From Roseburia sp. CAG:303 (lineage in GTDB: Bacteria; Bacillota; Clostridia; Lachnospirales; Lachnospiraceae), in the NCBI GenBank assembly GCA_000437755.1, contig FR900145.1, positions 50,242 to 114,241 on the forward strand: 64,000 nt of DNA, written 5' to 3'. Position numbers and translations under genes: made by a program. Positions within the stretch are counted from its first letter, which is position 1; the number at the start of each line of letters is the position of its first letter. Shown in pieces: positions 2,240 to 62,301 of this stretch. Under the pieces are notes generated by a model. It made no database searches. It had not been told where the DNA came from and worked only from the letters and a program-made list of their open reading frames with translations.

Positions 2240-3385
2240 ATGAATGATATAGCAATGAACGAAGAGAAAATATTTTTGGAAAGCCTGGAACAACTGGTAG
2301 AACTTGCGAAATCAAAAAAGAATATGCTTGAAATTTCGGACATTGACAAATTTTTAAAAGATAAAAGTATTAGTGCGGAACATATAGATTTGATCTATCA
2401 GTATCTGGAGGAGAAAAAGATAGATGTAGTTCCGAATACGGAAGAAGCTTTTTTGGAAGAAGATGATCTTCTTTTAGAGCCTACCGATGATGATTTTGAA
2501 GATGAAGAGAATATTGATTTAGATGCTATAAATCTTCTGGAAGGGATCGGAACGGAAGATCCGGTCAGAATGTATTTGAAAGAAATTGGTACTGTACCTC
2601 TTTTATCTGCGGATGAAGAGTTACGTCTTGCCAGAGAAAAAGCAGAAGGCGGACCAAGAGGACAGAGAGCGAAAGAAAAACTCATAGAGGCCAATTTACG
2701 ACTGGTAGTAAGTATTGCAAAGCGTTATACAGGAAGAGGTATGAGTTTTCTGGATCTTGTCCAGGAAGGAAACCTGGGACTGATCAAAGGGGTTGAGAAA
2801 TTTGATCCGGATAAGGGATTCAAACTCAGTACTTATGCAACATGGTGGATTCGCCAGTCCGTTACAAGGGCACTTGCCGATCAGGCACGTACGATCCGTG
2901 TACCGGTGCATATGGTGGAAACCATCAACAGAATGTCCAAGATGCAGAGAAAGCTGACATTGGAGCTGGGATACGAACCGTCCACGGCAGAACTGGCCAA
3001 TGCACTGGATATGCCGGAAGAAAAAGTACTTGAGATTATGCAGATTGCAAGAGAACCAGCTTCTCTGGAAACACCTATCGGTGAAGAGGATGATTCCAAT
3101 CTGGGAGATTTTGTTGCAGATAACAATACAGTCACACCGGAACAGAATGTGGAATCCGTTATGCTGAGAGAACATATAGATATCCTGCTGCAGGATTTAA
3201 AAGACAGGGAAAAACAGGTTATTGTACTGCGGTTCGGACTGGAAGACGGGCATCCGAGAACATTGGAAGAAGTAGGTAAGGAATTCAATGTTACAAGAGA
3301 AAGAATACGCCAGATTGAAGCAAAGGCATTGCGGAAATTAAGAAATCCGGTTAGAAGTAAAAAGATTAAGGACTTCCTCATGTAG
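2240..3385 (+). CDS. sigA: RNA polymerase sigma-70 factor SigA/RpoD
   Basis: Regions 1.1 to 4 recognisable: acidic N-terminus, ...[16 protein letters not shown]..., [14 protein letters not shown], and [27 protein letters not shown] at the C-terminus. Confidence 0.95.
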
Positions 3386-3407
3386 GAGGTCCTTTTCCAG
3401 TTTATTA

Positions 3408-3610
3408 GGTAATTGCGAAACACTTAAATTTTTGTAAATGCATATGCAAATGAAACATTACCACGAAGGCACGCTCTCGCTACATTCGGCTGGTAGCGGT
3501 ACTAAGATGCTAAAATACAGCATCTAAGTGCCGACCGCCTCATAGTACCTTCTTAGTAATTGTTTGATTTGCATATACAATAAAGATAAACTATGAGTTT
3601 CGCAATTACC
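3408..3610. repeat. structured intergenic element bounded by 14-bp inverted repeats (ggtaattgcgaaac / gtttcgcaattacc) with inner 18-bp IRs and a three-hairpin core; flanked by about 48-bp direct repeats (3391-3438 and 3609-3665)
   Basis: Direct reading of sequence; see findings. Confidence 0.5.
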
Positions 3611-3685
3611 TTTTCCAGTTTATAATAAAAAGGAGTAATTGCAAAACACTTAAATATTTATAAAAGACTGCAAAAGGAGATTAAA

Positions 3686-6385
3686 ATGAAAGAATACAGC
3701 ATAAAGTTCCATGATAACCGTCTGGTGGATACGGATGGTCTGAATGTGGAGCAGATAAGTGACCATTCATACCGCATCAGCATTGCTGACGGAAGATATA
3801 ATGTCAGGGTTCTGGATGGGGATTTGAATGACAGAGGGGATGTGAATGTGTATACAACCTTAAACCACGTCCGTCAGAATCCGATCTGGGCGGGGGATAA
3901 GGTGATACGTTCCGGGTGTTATAAGACCGAAGTAAAAAACGGATGCATGGAAATCAGTTTCTCCGGAAAATATGTATGTATACAGGGGATTGATATTGCG
4001 GCAGAGATTGAGGACGAGATCGAATCGCTTTCTGCCGGGGTTCATGCATCGGAAGAAAAATCCTCGGTCAGATTATTCATCCGGAGAAACACGCAGTATG
4101 AAAAGGTTCATTTATACAGGAAAAAGTGTGGAAGCGGAATGGATCCGGAGATGATTGAACTGTGCGGGGAAGAATATGTGGATGAAGATGTCCTGCTGTG
4201 TGAAAGCTACGAATATTATGCCTGCATTGTGGACAACCTTGGATTCGAGGGAAAGATTTCGGATAAAATAACCGTAGAGATAGCAGATAAAACGGCCGCA
4301 AAACCGGAGATAAAAAACTATACGGTAAAAACAGTGAATGAGCATACCACGAAGCTGACCTGGGAGGGAAAAGCATGGAAATACCGCATTTACCGGAAAA
4401 CAGCAGTCAGTAACTACAAATTTCTGGGAGAAACAGAGAACTGTAGTTTTACAGATGAAACCATGATTACCGATCGGAGTTATATTTATGCGGTACAGGC
4501 TCTTTCAACCGGCGGAAAAAGCAGACGGAAAGAAGCAGAGTCACAGATTTTTGCGCCACTTCGCAGGCGGCAGATGGAACAGCTTGACAGAGGTGCTGTG
4601 GCGATACGCACAAGGCGGGGAATGTATCTGACCTTCCGGCTCGCCGCCTGGGAATATGAAACGGCGGAGTTTCATATTTATGCGGACGGAAAACGGATTG
4701 CACAGATTGGAAAACACGATGCAACGAATTATCTGGATAAAAAAGGCGATCTCCATACCCGGTATGAGATAAAGAAGGTTACGAACGGAAAAGAAGAAGA
4801 ACATGGATACATTGCAAAGAATCTGGCACATAACTATTTCGATTTGCCGATAAACAAACCGGCGGATTACAAAGCTCCGGATGGAGCGATCTATTCCTAT
4901 ACGGCAAATGATGCAAGTGTCGCAGATCTTGACGGAGATGGCGAGTACGAACTGATTTTGAAGTGGGACTGTGCAGGACGGGATAATTCCCATGCGGGAT
5001 ATTCCGGGCCGGTATTTCTCGATGCCTATAAACTGGATGGACGTATGCTGTGGAGAATCGATCTTGGAAGAAATATCCGGGCAGGAGCACATTATACCCA
5101 GTTCATGGTATATGATTTTGATGGGGACGGATATGCGGAAATGATCGTAAAGACGGCAGACGGAACCAGAGATGCCGCTGGAAATTATGTCGGGGACAAG
5201 ACAAAAGATTACCGCAACCGGGAAGGATTCATTATCGAAGGACCAGAGTATCTGTCTTTGTTTGATGGAAGATACGGAACCCTGCTGGACACCATTCCAT
5301 ACGACCCGCCGCGTGGCAATATTGCCGATTGGGGTGACTCCTGGGGCAATCGTGTGGATCGCTTCCTCGCCTGCGTGGCATATCTTGACGGCATACATCC
5401 GAGCGCGGTTATGTGCCGCGGTTACTACGATCACGGCAGACCGGCACATCTGGCAGCCTGGGATGTAAAAGATAAAAAATTAGTAAAACGCTGGAAATTT
5501 GAGGCAAATCACAAGCAGAACATCGAGTATACCAACCAGGGCTTCCATAACCTGGCGGTGGCCGATGTGGACGATGACGGCTGTGACGAGATTATCTACG
5601 GAGCATGTGTCATTGACCATGACGGAACCGGGCTGTATTCGACCGATCTGGGACACGGAGATGCCATGCATGTGGGTAAATTCACGAAAGACTCACCGGG
5701 ATTCGATTACTTTGGAATCCATGAAGATGCGGACTGCCCGTGGGGCATCGAGGCACACGATGCAGGAACCGGAAAACACCGGTTTGGGATTCGTACCGGA
5801 AAAGATACCGCAAGAGGGCTGACTGCCAAAATTGATCCGAGGTATGATGGAAACCAGATGTGGGCATACTATGGCGGTGGGTTATATAATTATGCGGACG
5901 GAAAGAAAATCACGGATACATTTCCGGAGCAGGTGAATTTTGCCATCTGGTGGGACGGCGATCTGCTGAGGGAACTTCTGGATCATGACTGGTATGGCTA
6001 TGAAACGGGAGTTGGAATTCCGAAGATTTACAAGTGGAACTGGAGAACGGAGGAAACAGAAATCCTGCTTTCCACCGATCAGGTGCTATCCAATAACGGA
6101 ACAAAAGGAAACCCGTGTATTCAGGCATGTCTGTTCGGGGATTGGCGGGAAGAAGCTGTATTCCGTGGAAAAAACAGTGAATTTCTGAGGATTTATACCA
6201 CAACCGAACCGACAAAGTGCAGAATCTATACCCTGATGCATGATGCGGTTTACCGCATGGGGATTGCATGGCAGAATACGGCATACAACCAGCCGCCGCA
6301 GACAGGTTTCTATATCGGCCCGGATATGAAAGGAATCAAAGTTCCGCCGCAGGATTATATCAGCCCGGCAAAAATGGGAGAATAA
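3686..6385 (+). CDS. polysaccharide lyase family 11 (rhamnogalacturonan endolyase YesW/YesX-like) with N-terminal FN3-like region; no signal peptide
   Basis: Beta-propeller Ca-site motifs VADLDGDGEYELILKWD, VYDFDGDGYAEMIVKTADG, VADVDDDGCDEIIYGACVIDHDG; DWGDSWGNRVDRFLACVAYLDG; LFGDWREEAVFR. Confidence 0.6.
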   Translation: MKEYSIKFHDNRLVDTDGLNVEQISDHSYRISIADGRYNVRVLDGDLNDRGDVNVYTTLNHVRQNPIWAGDKVIRSGCYKTEVKNGCMEISFSGKYVCIQGIDIAAEIEDEIESLSAGVHASEEKSSVRLFIRRNTQYEKVHLYRKKCGSGMDPEMIELCGEEYVDEDVLLCESYEYYACIVDNLGFEGKISDKITVEIADKTAAKPEIKNYTVKTVNEHTTKLTWEGKAWKYRIYRKTAVSNYKFLGETENCSFTDETMITDRSYIYAVQALSTGGKSRRKEAESQIFAPLRRRQMEQLDRGAVAIRTRRGMYLTFRLAAWEYETAEFHIYADGKRIAQIGKHDATNYLDKKGDLHTRYEIKKVTNGKEEEHGYIAKNLAHNYFDLPINKPADYKAPDGAIYSYTANDASVADLDGDGEYELILKWDCAGRDNSHAGYSGPVFLDAYKLDGRMLWRIDLGRNIRAGAHYTQFMVYDFDGDGYAEMIVKTADGTRDAAGNYVGDKTKDYRNREGFIIEGPEYLSLFDGRYGTLLDTIPYDPPRGNIADWGDSWGNRVDRFLACVAYLDGIHPSAVMCRGYYDHGRPAHLAAWDVKDKKLVKRWKFEANHKQNIEYTNQGFHNLAVADVDDDGCDEIIYGACVIDHDGTGLYSTDLGHGDAMHVGKFTKDSPGFDYFGIHEDADCPWGIEAHDAGTGKHRFGIRTGKDTARGLTAKIDPRYDGNQMWAYYGGGLYNYADGKKITDTFPEQVNFAIWWDGDLLRELLDHDWYGYETGVGIPKIYKWNWRTEETEILLSTDQVLSNNGTKGNPCIQACLFGDWREEAVFRGKNSEFLRIYTTTEPTKCRIYTLMHDAVYRMGIAWQNTAYNQPPQTGFYIGPDMKGIKVPPQDYISPAKMGE

Positions 6386-39272: not shown

Positions 39273-39908
39273 CTACTGAACATCGATATGTTTGTTATTT
39301 CTTTTTACACCATCGATGAATGTGGTTTTAATATCATTTTCATATAAACGCATTTCAATTTCCAGAGGAGTCGGATCTCTCGACAGCTTCTTTTTTCCGA
39401 AATGATTGTAGAAGATGAGAATACCGCCGCCAAGACCAATCGAATAGCTGAATTCAAGCACGGTAAAGCCACTGCTCTCCTTTCCGGAGAAAAAGGTATA
39501 AATCTGTGAAAATACATTATGCACCTGGACATCATTATTAAATGCCATAATGGTGAAGGCAGAGCCGAAAAATGTAATCAGGCAGATCAGGACAGTTTTT
39601 ACCCGGATCATAGCCATCGAAGGTTTCTTTGCATTCTTTTCGATGATAAAGTCACAGCTGCCGAGATGAATCAGATTCGTCTCCGGATATTCAGCGGATA
39701 TAATTTCAAATACCTTCAGTGCAGTGAAAATAACCCGCTCATCTCTGTTTTTGCCGATATTTTTCCCCTTGAAAGAATATATTTTCAGGGCATTTATCTT
39801 ACTCTGCAGGGTTTTATCCCGACACAGTACGGTTGCGACATCGCTGATAATAACCTTATCACTTTCCACTTTGGTACTGTCATCAAAAAAGAGATATACA
39901 TTTTCCAT
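39273..39908 (-). CDS. spoVAA: stage V sporulation protein AA (SpoVAA)-like
   Basis: 211 aa with central TM pair; first gene of spoVA operon. Confidence 0.55.
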   Translation of the reverse strand: MENVYLFFDDSTKVESDKVIISDVATVLCRDKTLQSKINALKIYSFKGKNIGKNRDERVIFTALKVFEIISAEYPETNLIHLGSCDFIIEKNAKKPSMAMIRVKTVLICLITFFGSAFTIMAFNNDVQVHNVFSQIYTFFSGKESSGFTVLEFSYSIGLGGGILIFYNHFGKKKLSRDPTPLEIEMRLYENDIKTTFIDGVKRNNKHIDVQ

Positions 39909-40033
39909 GGTGTAAAATCCTTTCTCAAAATAAAATGTAAAAACCTTTCAAAACTATTATTTTCCAATCTTAAAATTTTATACAAAAATCGTATAAGAAA
40001 AAAAATATGAACCATAATTTAAAAGACCATGGA

Positions 40034-40089
40034 TAATTGCGAAATGCTTAATTTATAAATATATATGCAAATTATGAATTTCGCAATTA
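40034..40089. promoter_or_regulatory. 12-bp perfect inverted repeat TAATTGCGAAAT / ATTTCGCAATTA with 32-bp spacer in the spoVA/PBP divergent region
   Basis: Read directly. Related copies GAATTGCgaaGCAATTC (40182-40198) and AATTGCGAAAA (40224-40234). The same half-site occurs at 3409-3421, 3597-3609 and 3637-3647. Confidence 0.5.
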
Positions 40090-40252
40090 TTAAAGATTAT
40101 GGTGCAGAAGCCAAAAAATAGAATTAATGCTTTAAAAACCGCGATGAATTTGGTATAATAATATGATGCCAGATGTTTGCGGAATTGCGAAGCAATTCGT
40201 AATTGTTCTGGGTTAAATGACAGAATTGCGAAAAGCAGGAAAGGATATAAAC

Positions 40253-47185: not shown

Positions 47186-47257
47186 TTCCGGAAATCCGGT
47201 ATAAAGTCTTGACAAAGGTATCTAATAGTGCTAACATAAATTTAATTAAAGAATAGA

Positions 47258-47440
47258 AATAGAGGTTGCATTTTTTAAGAGTAATATCCCGGATGTGGGC
47301 AGTGCAGAAGAAAGGATAAGAAAGGGAAAAATGCCGAAGGGATCAGATTTTCCTGCCGTTTTGTATCCCTGGGCATGCAGTGAAGAACTGTATGACTGTC
47401 ATCTGATGGGAAATCCCTGGATGGAGAGCTATGAACATTT
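47258..47440 (+). promoter_or_regulatory. lysine riboswitch (L-box) leader of dapA-dapB
   Basis: atAGAGGTTGCa..., GAAAGGG, TGCCGAAGGG, aACTGTatgACTGTCA, TGGAGAGCTAT in canonical order. Confidence 0.7.
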
Positions 47441-47552: not shown

Positions 47553-48437
47553 ATGTCAATATTTACAGGAGCAGGTGTAGCGATTATTACACCAATGAAG
47601 GAAAATGGGGATGTAAACTTTGAAAAATTCGGAGAAATCGTAGAAGAGCAGATTGCCGGAAACACGGATGCCATCATTGTCTGCGGAACAACAGGAGAAG
47701 CTTCCACATTGACACACGAAGAACATTTAGCATGTATTAAGTTCGTGGTTGAGAAGGTAAATAAGAGAATCCCGGTCATTGCAGGAACCGGTTCAAACTG
47801 CACAAAGACAGCAGTATATTTATCACAGGAAGCTGAGAAATTAGGTGCGGACGGAGTCCTTCTGGTATCTCCATATTATAATAAAGCAACACAGAACGGA
47901 CTGAAGAATCATTTTGTGACTATTGCAAAATCCATTCATATCCCTGTTATTTTATATAATATCCAGGGAAGAACCGGTGTAAATATTCTTCCGTCTACCA
48001 TCGCAGCGATTGCAGAAGAAGCAGAGAATGTAGTAGCAGTAAAAGAAGCAAGCGGTAATATTTCCCAGGTAGCAGAGATTGCAAAACAGACAAAAGGAAA
48101 GCTCGATATTTATTCTGGAAATGATGATCAGATTATTCCGATCCTTTCCCTGGGTGGAAAAGGTGTTATCTCCGTATTATCCAATGTTGCACCAAAGCAG
48201 ACACATCAGATGTGCGAGGAATACTTTAACGGAAATGTTGAAAAGGCAAAGGATATGCAGTTAGAGGCACTGGATTTAATCCATGCACTGTTCTGCGAGG
48301 TAAATCCGATTCCAGTTAAGGCTGCCATGAACCTTATGGGAAAAGAAGTTGGTTCTCTCCGTGCACCGCTTACCGAGATGGAAGATGCAAATAAGGAAAG
48401 ATTAAGAAAAGCCATGCAGGAATATGGTATTCTTTAA
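47553..48437 (+). CDS. dapA: 4-hydroxy-tetrahydrodipicolinate synthase
   Basis: GVAIITPM...IIVCGTTGEASTLTHEEH...; 294 aa. Confidence 0.95.
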   Translation: MSIFTGAGVAIITPMKENGDVNFEKFGEIVEEQIAGNTDAIIVCGTTGEASTLTHEEHLACIKFVVEKVNKRIPVIAGTGSNCTKTAVYLSQEAEKLGADGVLLVSPYYNKATQNGLKNHFVTIAKSIHIPVILYNIQGRTGVNILPSTIAAIAEEAENVVAVKEASGNISQVAEIAKQTKGKLDIYSGNDDQIIPILSLGGKGVISVLSNVAPKQTHQMCEEYFNGNVEKAKDMQLEALDLIHALFCEVNPIPVKAAMNLMGKEVGSLRAPLTEMEDANKERLRKAMQEYGIL

Positions 48438-62078: not shown

Positions 62079-62112
62079 ACCAAAGTAGTCTGATGGAGGC
62101 GAACAAAGATGT

Positions 62113-62185
62113 GGGATCTTAGCTCAGCTGGGAGAGCATCTGCCTTACAAGCAGAGGGTCATAGGTTCGAGCCCTATAGGTCCCA
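62113..62185 (+). tRNA. tRNA-Val (anticodon TAC)
   Basis: Cloverleaf gggatct...agctcagctgggagagc...ctgccTTACAaggcag...ggttcgagccc...aggtccca; no encoded CCA. Confidence 0.85.
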
Positions 62186-62214
62186 TCCTTTTAAGTTTTG
62201 ATTAGGCGATATAT

Positions 62215-62288
62215 GGCTAAGTAGCTCAGTTGGCTAGAGCACGCGGTTCATACCCGCGGTGTCAGGGGTTCGAATCCCTTCTTAGCCA
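62215..62288 (+). tRNA. tRNA-Met (anticodon CAT; elongator Met or tRNA-Ile2 lysidine type)
   Basis: ggctaag tagctcagttggctagagc acgcggTTCATAcccgcg...ggttcgaatccc cttagcc a. Confidence 0.85.
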
Positions 62289-62301
62289 TTACGACATGGG
62301 A

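What the first reader, a model, noticed from the sequence alone, without database searches (positions are those of the whole stretch)
40030..40240. Recurrent TAATTGCGAAA(T/C) palindromic motif in two distant intergenic regions
The spoVA/PBP1A divergent region holds three copies. One is a perfect 12-bp IR TAATTGCGAAAT-32 bp-ATTTCGCAATTA (40034-40089). One is a compact palindrome GAATTGCgaaGCAATTC (40182-40198). One is cagAATTGCGAAAAgc (40224-40234). The same half-site, with the same downstream cttaaat...tatgcaaat context, flanks the structured element at 3409-3421, 3597-3609 and 3637-3647. Shared half-sites plus an extended ~45-nt similarity (TAATTGCGAAAcacttaaatttttgtaaatgcatatgcaaat vs TAATTGCGAAAtgcttaatttataaatatatatgcaaat) suggest a common DNA-binding regulator or a dispersed repeat family. 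The half-site also resembles a TTGCGA -35 box.
Basis: seen in the sequence. Interest (0 to 1): 0.55.

Follow-up and report, generated by a model that had tools for sequence, protein, structure and literature searches.

The report
Terminal repeats of a gut-bacterial MITE
The recurring TAATTGCGAAA motif is not a regulator's binding site: it is the end sequence of a small non-coding mobile element, and of its decayed relics, that has multiplied in a human-gut Lachnospiraceae genome, shares its ends with an IS1182-like insertion sequence, and lands mostly just upstream of ribosome-binding sites.

Summary
AATTGCGAAA occurs 5 times exactly in the window, all in two intergenic regions.

The motif is the terminal inverted repeat, TAG(G/T)TAATTGCGAAAC, of a miniature inverted-repeat transposable element (MITE).
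- **Full copy:** window 3406-3612 is a 207-bp copy flanked by an 11-bp target-site duplication. One strain with an identical RpoD protein has the precise empty site.
- **Short derivative:** 40033-40090 is a 58-bp derivative, present or absent among strains and missing from five sister species.
- **Relic:** 3632-3667 is a solo-arm relic.
- **Family size:** human-gut metagenomes gave at least 45 distinct insertion sites. The 206-bp copies are about 96% identical. 33 of 45 sites carry 9-13-bp duplications, and 37% of matches are cut by contig ends.
- **Likely parent:** the same 17 terminal bases end a ~1745-bp insertion sequence that encodes a 485-aa DUF772/DDE transposase, distantly IS1182-like.

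The regulator reading is not supported, because no sister species has the motif at the orthologous promoters.

One feature was unexpected. In 32 of 40 sites a Shine-Dalgarno motif lies 14-27 nt beyond one particular arm, against 4% in controls. Tandem element arrays share one 11-bp spacer.

The two 5'UTR motif copies at 40182-40234 remain unresolved and are probably relics.

The parts
3406..3612 (-). Full-length MITE copy of 207 bp. The ends are TAGGTAATTGCGAAAC ... GTTTCGCAATTACCTT. Arm B is at the left and arm A at the right on the + strand. The structured core hairpins lie at about 3458-3560.
   Evidence: The arms are 51 nt and 78% complementary. The fold is -78 kcal/mol on the + strand and -88 on the - strand, z -8 and -10. 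nhmmer gives E 9e-74 against a profile of 28 copies from other loci. The element is absent from strain L042. There is no Rfam match.
3395..3405 (.). Left copy of the 11-bp target-site duplication, TTCCAGTTTAT.
   Evidence: The same 11-mer lies at 3613-3623. Empty-site strain L042 has it once. The indel is 218 bp, equal to 207 + 11.
3613..3623 (.). Right copy of the target-site duplication, TTCCAGTTTAT. It is followed by AATA and AAAAAGGAG.
3632..3667 (+). Solo relic of an arm-B end, GAGTAATTGCAAAACACTTAAATATTTATAAAAG. It is older than the full copy.
   Evidence: It is 90% identical over 30 nt to 3409-3438. nhmmer gives E 0.04. It is also present in the empty-site strain L042.
40033..40090 (.). 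Short 58-bp hairpin derivative of the family. It has the same 12-bp tips and the internal TATGCAAAT box. It lacks the outer TAGG/CCTA and has no 11-bp duplication.
   Evidence: The arms are 29 nt, 83% complementary, with no loop. nhmmer gives E 0.03 to arm B. Strain L044 lacks 70 bp that contain it. Five sister species lack it together with about 25 bp of flank.
40182..40198 (+). Small palindrome GAATTGCgaaGCAATTC in the PBP1A 5'UTR. It is a probable decayed arm relic, and its status is unresolved.
   Evidence: It lies in a ~50-nt segment that all five sister species lack. A local alignment to the short element's arm extends to AATTGCGA..AATTC(G/A)TAATT, and 0 of 200 shuffles reach that score. 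It is not significant by nhmmer, E 65-80. It is present in L044, so it is independent of the 58-bp hairpin.
40221..40236 (+). Isolated motif copy cAGAATTGCGAAAAGC, directly upstream of the PBP1A ribosome-binding site AGGAAAGGA. It is a probable relic, and its status is unresolved.
   Evidence: It lies in the same species-specific 5'UTR segment. Its 12-mer CAGAATTGCGAA is identical to the subterminal inverted copy in the right end of insertion sequence L170, and 1 of 200 shuffles reaches that score.

Best explanation
TAATTGCGAAA(C/T) is the core of the terminal inverted repeat, TAG(G/T)TAATTGCGAAAC, of a family of miniature inverted-repeat transposable elements in Lachnospiraceae. The window comes from a human-gut member, probably Roseburia.

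**What the window holds**
- One intact 207-bp copy lies between rpoD and a rhamnogalacturonan-lyase gene.
- One solo-arm relic lies next to it.
- One 58-bp short derivative lies between the divergent spoVA and PBP1A promoters.
- Two isolated motif copies, probably decayed relics, lie in the PBP1A 5'UTR.

**How it works**
- Shown by sequence: the elements encode no protein.
- Shown by sequence: integration duplicates about 11 bp of target.
- Inferred: a DDE transposase supplied in trans binds the terminal repeat and cuts and pastes, or copies, the element. The source is a ~1745-bp insertion sequence. Its right end carries the identical 17 terminal bases, and its left end differs at 3 of 16.

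**Target choice**
- Shown as a pattern: insertion falls a few bases upstream of Shine-Dalgarno sequences, usually with arm A facing the gene.
- Inferred: this reflects target recognition rather than selection.

**The core**
The internal core is a set of modular hairpins whose pairing is kept by compensatory changes between subfamilies. The elements are therefore folded as single strands, DNA or RNA, at some stage.
For: **Empty sites**
- Strain L042 has the same RpoD protein but lacks exactly the element plus one copy of the 11-bp duplication, 218 bp in all.
- Strain L044 lacks the 58-bp hairpin.

**Copy number and spread**
- The genome scan found members in at least 10 Lachnospiraceae genomes, with several copies in one 8-kb stretch of L027.
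- 45 distinct flanks passed the flank filter (47 before it).
- 28 copies at different loci average 95.8% identity.
- 59 of 158 matches are cut off by a contig end.

**Target-site duplications**
- 33 of 45 sites carry 9-13-bp direct repeats, with a mode of 11.
- Fewer than 1% do so when flanks are paired at random.

**Partner insertion sequence**
- L056 carries a window-type MITE end next to a degenerate copy.
- Intact copies (L170, L173, L179) are bounded by TAGGCGTTTGCGAAAC ... GAGTTTCGCAATTACCTA and encode a 485-aa protein with DUF772 plus a weak DDE_Tnp_1 match. The best NCBIfam model is IS1182.
- L171 reads [MITE]-TTATTTTATTT-[IS]-TTATTTTATTT-[IS].
- The same insertion sequence occurs in Roseburia sp. 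831b and Butyrivibrio proteoclasticus B316.

**Recombination between copies**
L040 is a rearrangement that joins the rpoD-locus copy to the flank of another copy, the L127 locus.

**Target preference**
- An SD-like motif lies at offset 14-27 on the arm-A side in 32 of 40 sites and on the arm-B side in 7 of 40.
- The control frequency is 4%.
- All four independent insertion-sequence left ends show the same geometry.

**Structure**
14 of 35 predicted pairs show compensatory changes.
Against: - The MITE shares only its terminal 16-17 bp with the insertion sequence. Mobilisation by that transposase is therefore inferred, not shown.
- The window has no transposase gene (tblastn).
- Several full-length insertion-sequence copies show no target duplication (L170, L179, L194).
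- The 58-bp element in the window lacks the outer TAGG/CCTA and an 11-bp duplication. The L044 allele is not identical to the sister-species state, so it may be a secondary deletion rather than a clean empty site.
- The two 5'UTR copies match the family only over 10-13 nt, plus a weak extension.
- Most related loci are metagenome assemblies, in which repeats can be joined wrongly.
Confidence: 0.88

Rival explanations
1. The motif is the operator half-site of a transcription factor that co-regulates the flanking genes (sporulation, envelope, polysaccharide use).
For: The sites are palindromic and intergenic. GAATTGCgaaGCAATTC looks like a classic dimer operator. The motif overlaps weak promoter-like matches.
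Against: - Half-site spacing varies: 3, 32 and 177 nt.
- The sites are insertion polymorphisms among strains with identical flanking proteins.
- Five sister species keep the true promoter blocks but have no such motif.
- The same ends flank 45 or more unrelated insertion sites with target duplications and also end a transposase gene.
Confidence: 0.03
2. The ~200-nt element is primarily a structured non-coding RNA gene family. The conserved closing helix would be a protein- or RNA-recognition feature, and mobility would be secondary.
For: - The folds are very stable, z -8 to -10.
- The central hairpins show compensatory changes in 14 of 35 pairs.
- G.U pairs favour one strand, -88 against -78 kcal/mol.
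- A 49-nt hairpin module is added or lost inside a loop, as in variable RNA stems.
Against: - There is no Rfam match.
- No promoter or terminator is conserved.
- The ends are conserved in sequence rather than covarying.
- Target duplications, empty sites and 96% identity between copies are signatures of transposition.
- Palindromic DNA elements can keep their pairing without any RNA function.

This reading does not exclude the MITE explanation; it would add a layer to it.
Confidence: 0.1
3. The two motif copies in the PBP1A 5'UTR (40182-40198, 40223-40234) are unrelated to the mobile element. They would be a chance match or an independent small RNA hairpin in the leader.
For: nhmmer with the full MITE profile is not significant there, E 65-80. 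The two copies are direct, not inverted. The terminator-like scan scores the first one as a small stem followed by a T-rich tail.
Against: - About 0.014 hits are expected in 100 bp (rate), yet two occur within 50 bp, next to a third family member.
- They lie in a ~50-nt segment that all five sister species lack, at the family's preferred position just upstream of an SD.
- Local alignments extend beyond the core: 0 of 200 and 1 of 200 shuffles reach the observed scores.
Confidence: 0.3
4. The repeats are REP/BIME-type palindromes moved by a RAYT (Y1) transposase, or recombination sites such as integron attC or dif-like sites.
For: They are small intergenic palindromes that fold as hairpins.
Against: - 11-bp target duplications are not made by those systems.
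- There is no GTAG-type REP head and no R''/R' attC consensus (read directly from the sequence).
- They are not arranged in arrays.
- The matching ends belong to a DDE-type insertion sequence.
Confidence: 0.02

Closest known systems
Bacterial MITEs such as Correia/NEMIS elements of Neisseria, RUP of Streptococcus pneumoniae, bcr1 of the Bacillus cereus group, and MIC231 (own knowledge of these families)
   Same: All are small non-coding elements of about 60-270 bp with terminal inverted repeats. They show target-site duplications, many near-identical intergenic copies and strain-to-strain presence/absence. They fold into long hairpins, and their ends are shared with an insertion sequence that can supply the transposase.
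   Different: - The duplication is about 11 bp. Correia uses TA, RUP uses TA-type sites and bcr1 uses TTTAT.
- Only 16-17 terminal bases are shared with the partner insertion sequence.
- The core consists of modular, covarying hairpins.
- Insertion is strongly biased to a fixed distance upstream of Shine-Dalgarno motifs, with an orientation bias.
- I found no description of this family in the searchable literature.
IS1182 family insertion sequences (IS5/IS1182 group of DDE transposons)
   Same: There is a single transposase ORF of about 485 aa with an N-terminal DUF772 domain and a C-terminal DDE_Tnp_1-like region. The element is about 1.7 kb and has terminal inverted repeats. IS1182 is the best NCBIfam model.
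   Different: - The score is far below the family cut-off, 80 against 270 bits.
- RefSeq labels the region of the Roseburia sp. 831b copy 'hypothetical protein'.
- The right end carries a conserved subterminal inverted copy of the terminal repeat.
- Duplications of 11-14 bp appear only for some copies.
Target-directed transposons that insert at a fixed distance from a recognised sequence (for example Tn7 at attTn7, or IS elements that insert into REP or attC sites; own knowledge)
   Same: Insertion has a fixed geometry relative to a short sequence feature, and there is an orientation bias. Repeated use of the same site produces tandem arrays separated by one duplication.
   Different: The apparent landmark is the generic Shine-Dalgarno motif, present upstream of most genes, rather than a unique site. 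No target-selecting protein or guide has been identified. Selection after insertion is not excluded.

Membership tests
Bacterial MITE | Small size with no coding capacity | tested here: met
   The elements are 207 bp and 58 bp. The size classes, measured from TAATTG to CAATTA, are 56-311 nt, mostly 198. The list of ORFs of 80 aa or more shows none contained within either element.
Bacterial MITE | Terminal inverted repeats | tested here: met
   The window copy has 51-nt imperfect arms. The terminal 16 nt, TAG(G/T)TAATTGCGAAAC, are conserved across 45 or more copies.
Bacterial MITE | Target-site duplication of constant length | tested here: met
   33 of 45 sites have 9-13-bp repeats, mode 11, against fewer than 1% in randomly paired flanks. 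The window copy has TTCCAGTTTAT. This is NOT met for the 58-bp element at 40033-40090, which has only a 5-bp YAYGG repeat.
Bacterial MITE | Many dispersed, similar copies in one genome | tested here: met
   Several copies lie on single contigs and in single samples. Copies at distinct loci average 95.8% identity, and 37% of matches are cut by contig ends. The total copy number in the source genome was not measured.
Bacterial MITE | Presence/absence polymorphism with a precise empty site | tested here: met
   L042 lacks the element plus one duplication, 218 bp. L044 lacks the short element, but imprecisely.
Bacterial MITE | Ends shared with an autonomous element that encodes a transposase | tested here: met
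   The insertion sequence's right end is identical over 17 nt, and its left end matches 13 of 16. The two occur on the same contigs (L056, L171). Actual mobilisation cannot be tested here.
IS1182 family (for the partner insertion sequence) | Transposase passes the family model NF033551 | tested here: not met
   The score is 80.5 bits against a cut-off of 270. It is the best-scoring family but far below threshold.
IS1182 family (for the partner insertion sequence) | DUF772 N-terminal domain plus a DDE catalytic domain | tested here: inconclusive
   DUF772 is clear, at 51 bits. DDE_Tnp_1 scores 22.2 bits against a cut-off of 23. The catalytic residues were not mapped.
   Five sister species keep the promoter blocks of the spoVA/PBP1A region but have no AATTGCGAA-like sequence, allowing up to 1 mismatch.
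   The spacings are 3, 32 and 177 nt.
   Genes next to the 45 sites were not annotated. In the window they are rpoD, a rhamnogalacturonan lyase, spoVAA and PBP1A.
Known RNA family (Rfam 15) | Match to a covariance model | tested here: not met
   There was no hit at gathering threshold in the window and none better than E 0.17 in 3350-3700.
REP/BIME (RAYT-mobilised) | Palindromes of about 35 bp with a conserved GTAG head, no target duplication, linked RAYT gene | tested here: not met
   11-bp duplications are present. The ends start with TAGG. The linked gene is DDE-type.

The most novel reading that the evidence does not exclude
This insertion-sequence and MITE family selects its target by reading the Shine-Dalgarno region. 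It would integrate with an 11-bp stagger ending 3-7 bp upstream of AAAGGAG, in a preferred orientation, and could re-use the same site to build tandem arrays separated by one duplication. It would then be a DDE transposon with a generic, translation-signal-directed target. It would place a 200-nt folded module into the 5' leaders of many genes of abundant gut Lachnospiraceae, possibly as a functional RNA, since the core hairpins covary and one strand folds better.
Probability: 0.4. Interest if true: 0.6.

Novelty: new member of a known kind. Interest (0 to 1): 0.4.

Why it matters
- **Annotation:** the motif should be masked as a repeat, not fed into regulon inference. It also explains contig breaks and at least one rearrangement (L040) in assemblies of a common human-gut Lachnospiraceae.
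- **Strain variation:** the element sits between promoters and ribosome-binding sites of many genes and differs between strains. It is therefore a ready source of strain-level expression differences, for example in the rhamnogalacturonan lyase next to rpoD.
- **Transposon biology:** if the Shine-Dalgarno-proximal placement reflects target choice rather than selection, it would be an unusual targeting rule for a DDE transposon and could be tested directly.
- **Gene naming:** the Roseburia sp. 831b copy lies under a 'hypothetical protein' annotation in RefSeq, so the family is under-annotated.

Tried and rejected
- **Rfam.** I searched the whole window at gathering threshold and 3350-3700 at E up to 10. 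Nothing relevant came up.
- **Sigma-70 promoter reading.** I aligned family members by eye. No -10 box is conserved at a proper distance from TTGCGA or from TTGCAT on either strand. The scans gave only consensus-level hits.
- **Known operator consensus sequences.** I compared the motif from memory with the Spo0A box, Rex, CcpA cre, LexA and CIRCE. None fits. This is recollection, not a test.
- **Viral contigs.** The arm pattern had no match.
- **Origin of the MITE core.** I looked for an internal deletion of the insertion sequence. blastn finds only the 16-17 terminal bases in common.
- **Transposase in the window.** tblastn found none.
- **Long-range pairs of ends in fetched loci.** All but L056 were adjacent MITEs or weak, mismatched matches (L027, L109) that I did not examine.
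- **Chance hits in the genome scan.** L005, L007, L013, L020 and L023 are a conserved coding sequence. About 15 hits in non-Lachnospiraceae taxa look random.
- **Literature.** Searches for the motif and for MITE or IS terms with Lachnospiraceae, Roseburia, IS1182 and Shine-Dalgarno found no description. ISfinder could not be consulted.
- **The 49-nt hairpin module.** I tested whether it is an independent repeat. All 30 occurrences are inside MITE copies; one of them lies at a contig end.

Full report
**1. The observation**

- AATTGCGAAA occurs five times exactly: 3411+, 3598-, 40035+, 40079- and 40224+.
- With one mismatch allowed there are 15 hits against 8.8 +/- 3.4 expected, and only 1 of 100 shuffles reaches 15.
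- The 8-mer ATTGCGAA occurs seven times in 64 kb, six of them inside two ~230-bp intergenic stretches.

The clustering is therefore not chance.

**2. Anatomy in the window**

Region 1 lies between rpoD (2240-3385) and a rhamnogalacturonan-lyase gene (3686-6385).
- The two sites at 3410 and 3608 are the tips of one element, 3406-3612, with 51-nt imperfect inverted arms.
- As a single strand it folds at -78 kcal/mol on the + strand and -88 kcal/mol on the - strand, z -8 and -10.
- It matches no Rfam family.
- It is flanked by the direct repeat TTCCAGTTTAT at 3395-3405 and 3613-3623.
- A third, solo arm at 3632-3667 is 90% identical to the left arm over 30 nt.

Region 2 lies between the divergent spoVAA (39273-39908, minus strand) and a class A PBP gene (start 40254).
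- 40033-40090 is a 58-nt hairpin with 29-nt arms, the same 12-nt tips and the same internal TATGCAAAT box.
- Two further motif copies lie at 40182-40198 and 40223-40234, downstream of a strong TTTAAA-17-TGgTATAAT promoter at 40131-40159. They are therefore in the PBP1A leader.

**3. The elements are insertions**

I looked up contigs that encode exactly the same RpoD protein.
- Most carry the element.
- L042 lacks precisely 218 bp, which is the 207-bp element plus one copy of the 11-bp repeat. It still has the solo arm.
- L039 and L041 carry an extra 49-nt hairpin inside a loop of the core.
- In L040 the sequence to the right of ...CGCAATTA switches to the flank of a different copy of the element, the L127 locus. 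That indicates recombination between copies.

Contigs that encode the same SpoVAA protein mostly carry the 58-nt hairpin. L044 lacks 70 bp that contain it but keeps the two leader motifs.

**4. A dispersed family**

I scanned 185,579 representative genomes for TAATTGCGAAA-N17-25-TATGCAAAT and got 33 loci.
- About a dozen are real family members, all in Lachnospiraceae. They include a Roseburia MAG copy almost identical to the window element but in a different flank (L001).
- Other long forms have diverged cores (L002/L030, L012, L014, L019, L027).
- Short forms are 70-80 nt (L024, L028).
- Five hits are a conserved coding sequence, and the rest look random.
- L027 holds two long copies within 8 kb.

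- After removing duplicates there are 45-47 distinct flanks.
- The size classes are 198 (most), 247, 270, 221, 244, 148, 70 and 56 nt.
- 28 copies of the main form at different loci average 95.8% identity.
- 59 of 158 matches are cut by a contig end, as expected for a repeat that breaks short-read assemblies.

The full ends are TAG(G/T)TAATTGCGAAAC ... GTTTCGCAATTA(C/A)CTA. 33 of 45 sites carry flanking direct repeats of 9-13 bp, mode 11, against fewer than 1% when left and right flanks are paired at random.

**5. The partner insertion sequence**

In L056 a window-type MITE end lies next to a 1448-bp unit bounded by TAGGTGTTTGCGAAAC and GAGTTTCGCAATTACCTA. That unit has a broken ORF carrying a DUF772 transposase domain.

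Homologues number in the thousands. Full-length ones are 485 aa, mostly on 1.5-3-kb contigs.

Intact copies (L170, L173, L179) are ~1745 bp.
- The left end is TAGGCGTTTGCGAAAC.
- The right end is identical to the MITE ends over 17 nt.

The protein has DUF772 and a borderline DDE_Tnp_1 match. Its best NCBIfam model is IS1182, at 80 bits against a cut-off of 270. I therefore call it IS1182-like, not a member.

The MITE and the insertion sequence share nothing but the tips, and the window has no transposase gene.

The right end of the insertion sequence always carries a subterminal inverted copy of the repeat, (A)ATTGCGAAC-N2-11-GTTTCGCAATTACCTA. This is a natural template for elements with two right-end-like tips.

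The same insertion sequence is present in cultured strains, Roseburia sp. 831b and Butyrivibrio proteoclasticus B316. In Roseburia sp. 831b the match lies under a CDS annotated 'hypothetical protein'; the B316 match has no annotated feature.

**6. Where the elements land**

I oriented the copies by their two distinguishable arms. Arm A reads ...GAAACTCATAATTTA and arm B reads ...GAAACACTTAAATTT.
- The flank beyond arm A reads duplication (11 nt), then 3-7 nt, then AAAGGAG, then 5-9 nt, then ATG in most sites.
- A gene start lies 24-35 nt from the arm-A end in 26 of 40 sites (30 of 40 within 120 nt).
- An SD-like motif at offset 14-27 is present on the arm-A side in 32 of 40 sites, on the arm-B side in 7 of 40, and at 4% of control positions.
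- Four independent insertion-sequence copies, and the Roseburia 831b copy, have the same geometry at their left end.

Tandem arrays share one spacer.
- L171 reads [MITE]-TTATTTTATTT-[IS]-TTATTTTATTT-[IS].
- B316 has tandem insertion sequences with CATTTATTTATAAA on both sides.

That is what repeated insertion into the same recognised site would produce. I take this as evidence for target choice, but selection after insertion is not excluded.

**7. The regulator idea**

Five sister species (SpoVAA 65-76% identical; L189, L190, L193, L196, L199) keep conserved blocks in the spoVA/PBP1A intergenic region. These are GTATAAGAAAAAA..., AATAGAATTAATGCTTTAAAA-N-TGGTATAAT and the AGGAAAGGA ribosome-binding site.

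None of them has an AATTGCGAA-like sequence. Both the hairpin with about 25 bp of flank and a ~50-nt leader segment holding the other two motif copies are specific to the window's species.

A conserved operator is therefore ruled out at this locus.

**8. The leader copies**

The leader segment sits at the family's preferred place, directly upstream of the SD.
- Its first copy aligns with the arm of the short element beyond the core motif, and 0 of 200 shuffles reach that score.
- Its second copy shares the 12-mer CAGAATTGCGAA with the subterminal repeat of insertion sequence L170, and 1 of 200 shuffles reaches that score.
- The full-profile search is not significant there.

I rate 'decayed relics' at about 0.6-0.7 and leave the question open.

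**9. Structure of the core**

An alignment of eight diverged members gives a consensus in which 14 of 35 pairs show compensatory changes, mainly in the central hairpin. G.U pairs favour the arm A to arm B strand, which is the window's minus strand.

The 49-nt module occurs only inside MITE copies.

The folded state therefore matters, but these data cannot say whether it matters as DNA during transposition or as RNA.

**10. Verdict**

The motif is the terminal inverted repeat of a MITE family and of its parent-like IS1182-like insertion sequence (confidence 0.88). As a kind of thing it is ordinary. As a family it appears undescribed in the literature I could search; ISfinder could not be checked.

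The Shine-Dalgarno-proximal, oriented placement is the one feature a specialist might find surprising.

Limits of this work:
- The species was not identified beyond Lachnospiraceae, probably Roseburia.
- The genome-wide copy number was not measured.
- Most comparative loci are metagenome assemblies.
- There are no experimental data.

Noticed in passing
window 47252-47439 (+): A lysine riboswitch (Rfam RF00168, 107 bits) lies upstream of the ORF at 47553-48437.
   Followed up: no
window 62112-62289 (+): tRNA-Val(TAC) and tRNA-Met(CAT) genes lie in tandem.
   Followed up: no
L039 and L041 (rpoD locus); also the 247- and 270-nt size classes, e.g. L067 9526-9772 and L084 334-603: A 49-nt hairpin module (CACTAGGGAATCTTCCCGGTTTACCGGGTCCCTCCCTAGTG) is inserted in a loop of the MITE core in some strains. 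All 30 occurrences found are inside MITE copies, and there are none in the window.
   Followed up: partly
L040 (rpoD locus of another strain): Downstream of the MITE's right tip the sequence switches to the flank of a different MITE locus (as in L127), next to an ABC-transporter gene. This is a rearrangement whose breakpoint is the repeat.
   Followed up: partly
L171 244-2205; L174/L175; L195 (Butyrivibrio proteoclasticus B316 pCY360): Tandem arrays of the insertion sequence, and of MITE plus insertion sequence, are separated by a spacer of 11-14 bp. In L171 and B316 that spacer is identical to a flanking repeat, as if the same target were hit repeatedly.
   Followed up: partly
L196 (sister species), upstream of spoVAA: A relic resembling the insertion sequence's left end, TAGGCATTTGCAAAACCGCC, lies 15 nt upstream of the spoVAA Shine-Dalgarno sequence. 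The geometry is the same as at the other insertion sites.
   Followed up: no
L194 (Roseburia sp. 831b, NZ_CP135163.1 111702-113156): At the Roseburia sp. 831b copy of the 485-aa transposase family (75% identical), the only annotated feature under the match is a 'hypothetical protein'. NCBIfam's IS1182 model scores far below its cut-off, so the family is under-annotated.
   Followed up: partly
window 3599-3626 (+): A hybrid promoter-like site matches 10 of 12. The -35-like TTCGCA comes from the MITE tip and TATAAT comes from the flanking DNA, pointing at the lyase gene. This is a consensus match only.
   Followed up: no
window 39950-40160 and the sister loci L189, L190, L193, L196, L199: The sister species conserve blocks in the spoVA/PBP1A intergenic region (GTATAAGAAAAAA...CAATAATTT and AATAGAATTAATGCTTTAAAA-N17-TGGTATAAT). 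These are the likely real promoter and control elements of the two operons.
   Followed up: no
L100 3878-4188: One MITE is inserted inside the arm of another (a nested copy), with its own 10-bp duplication.
   Followed up: no
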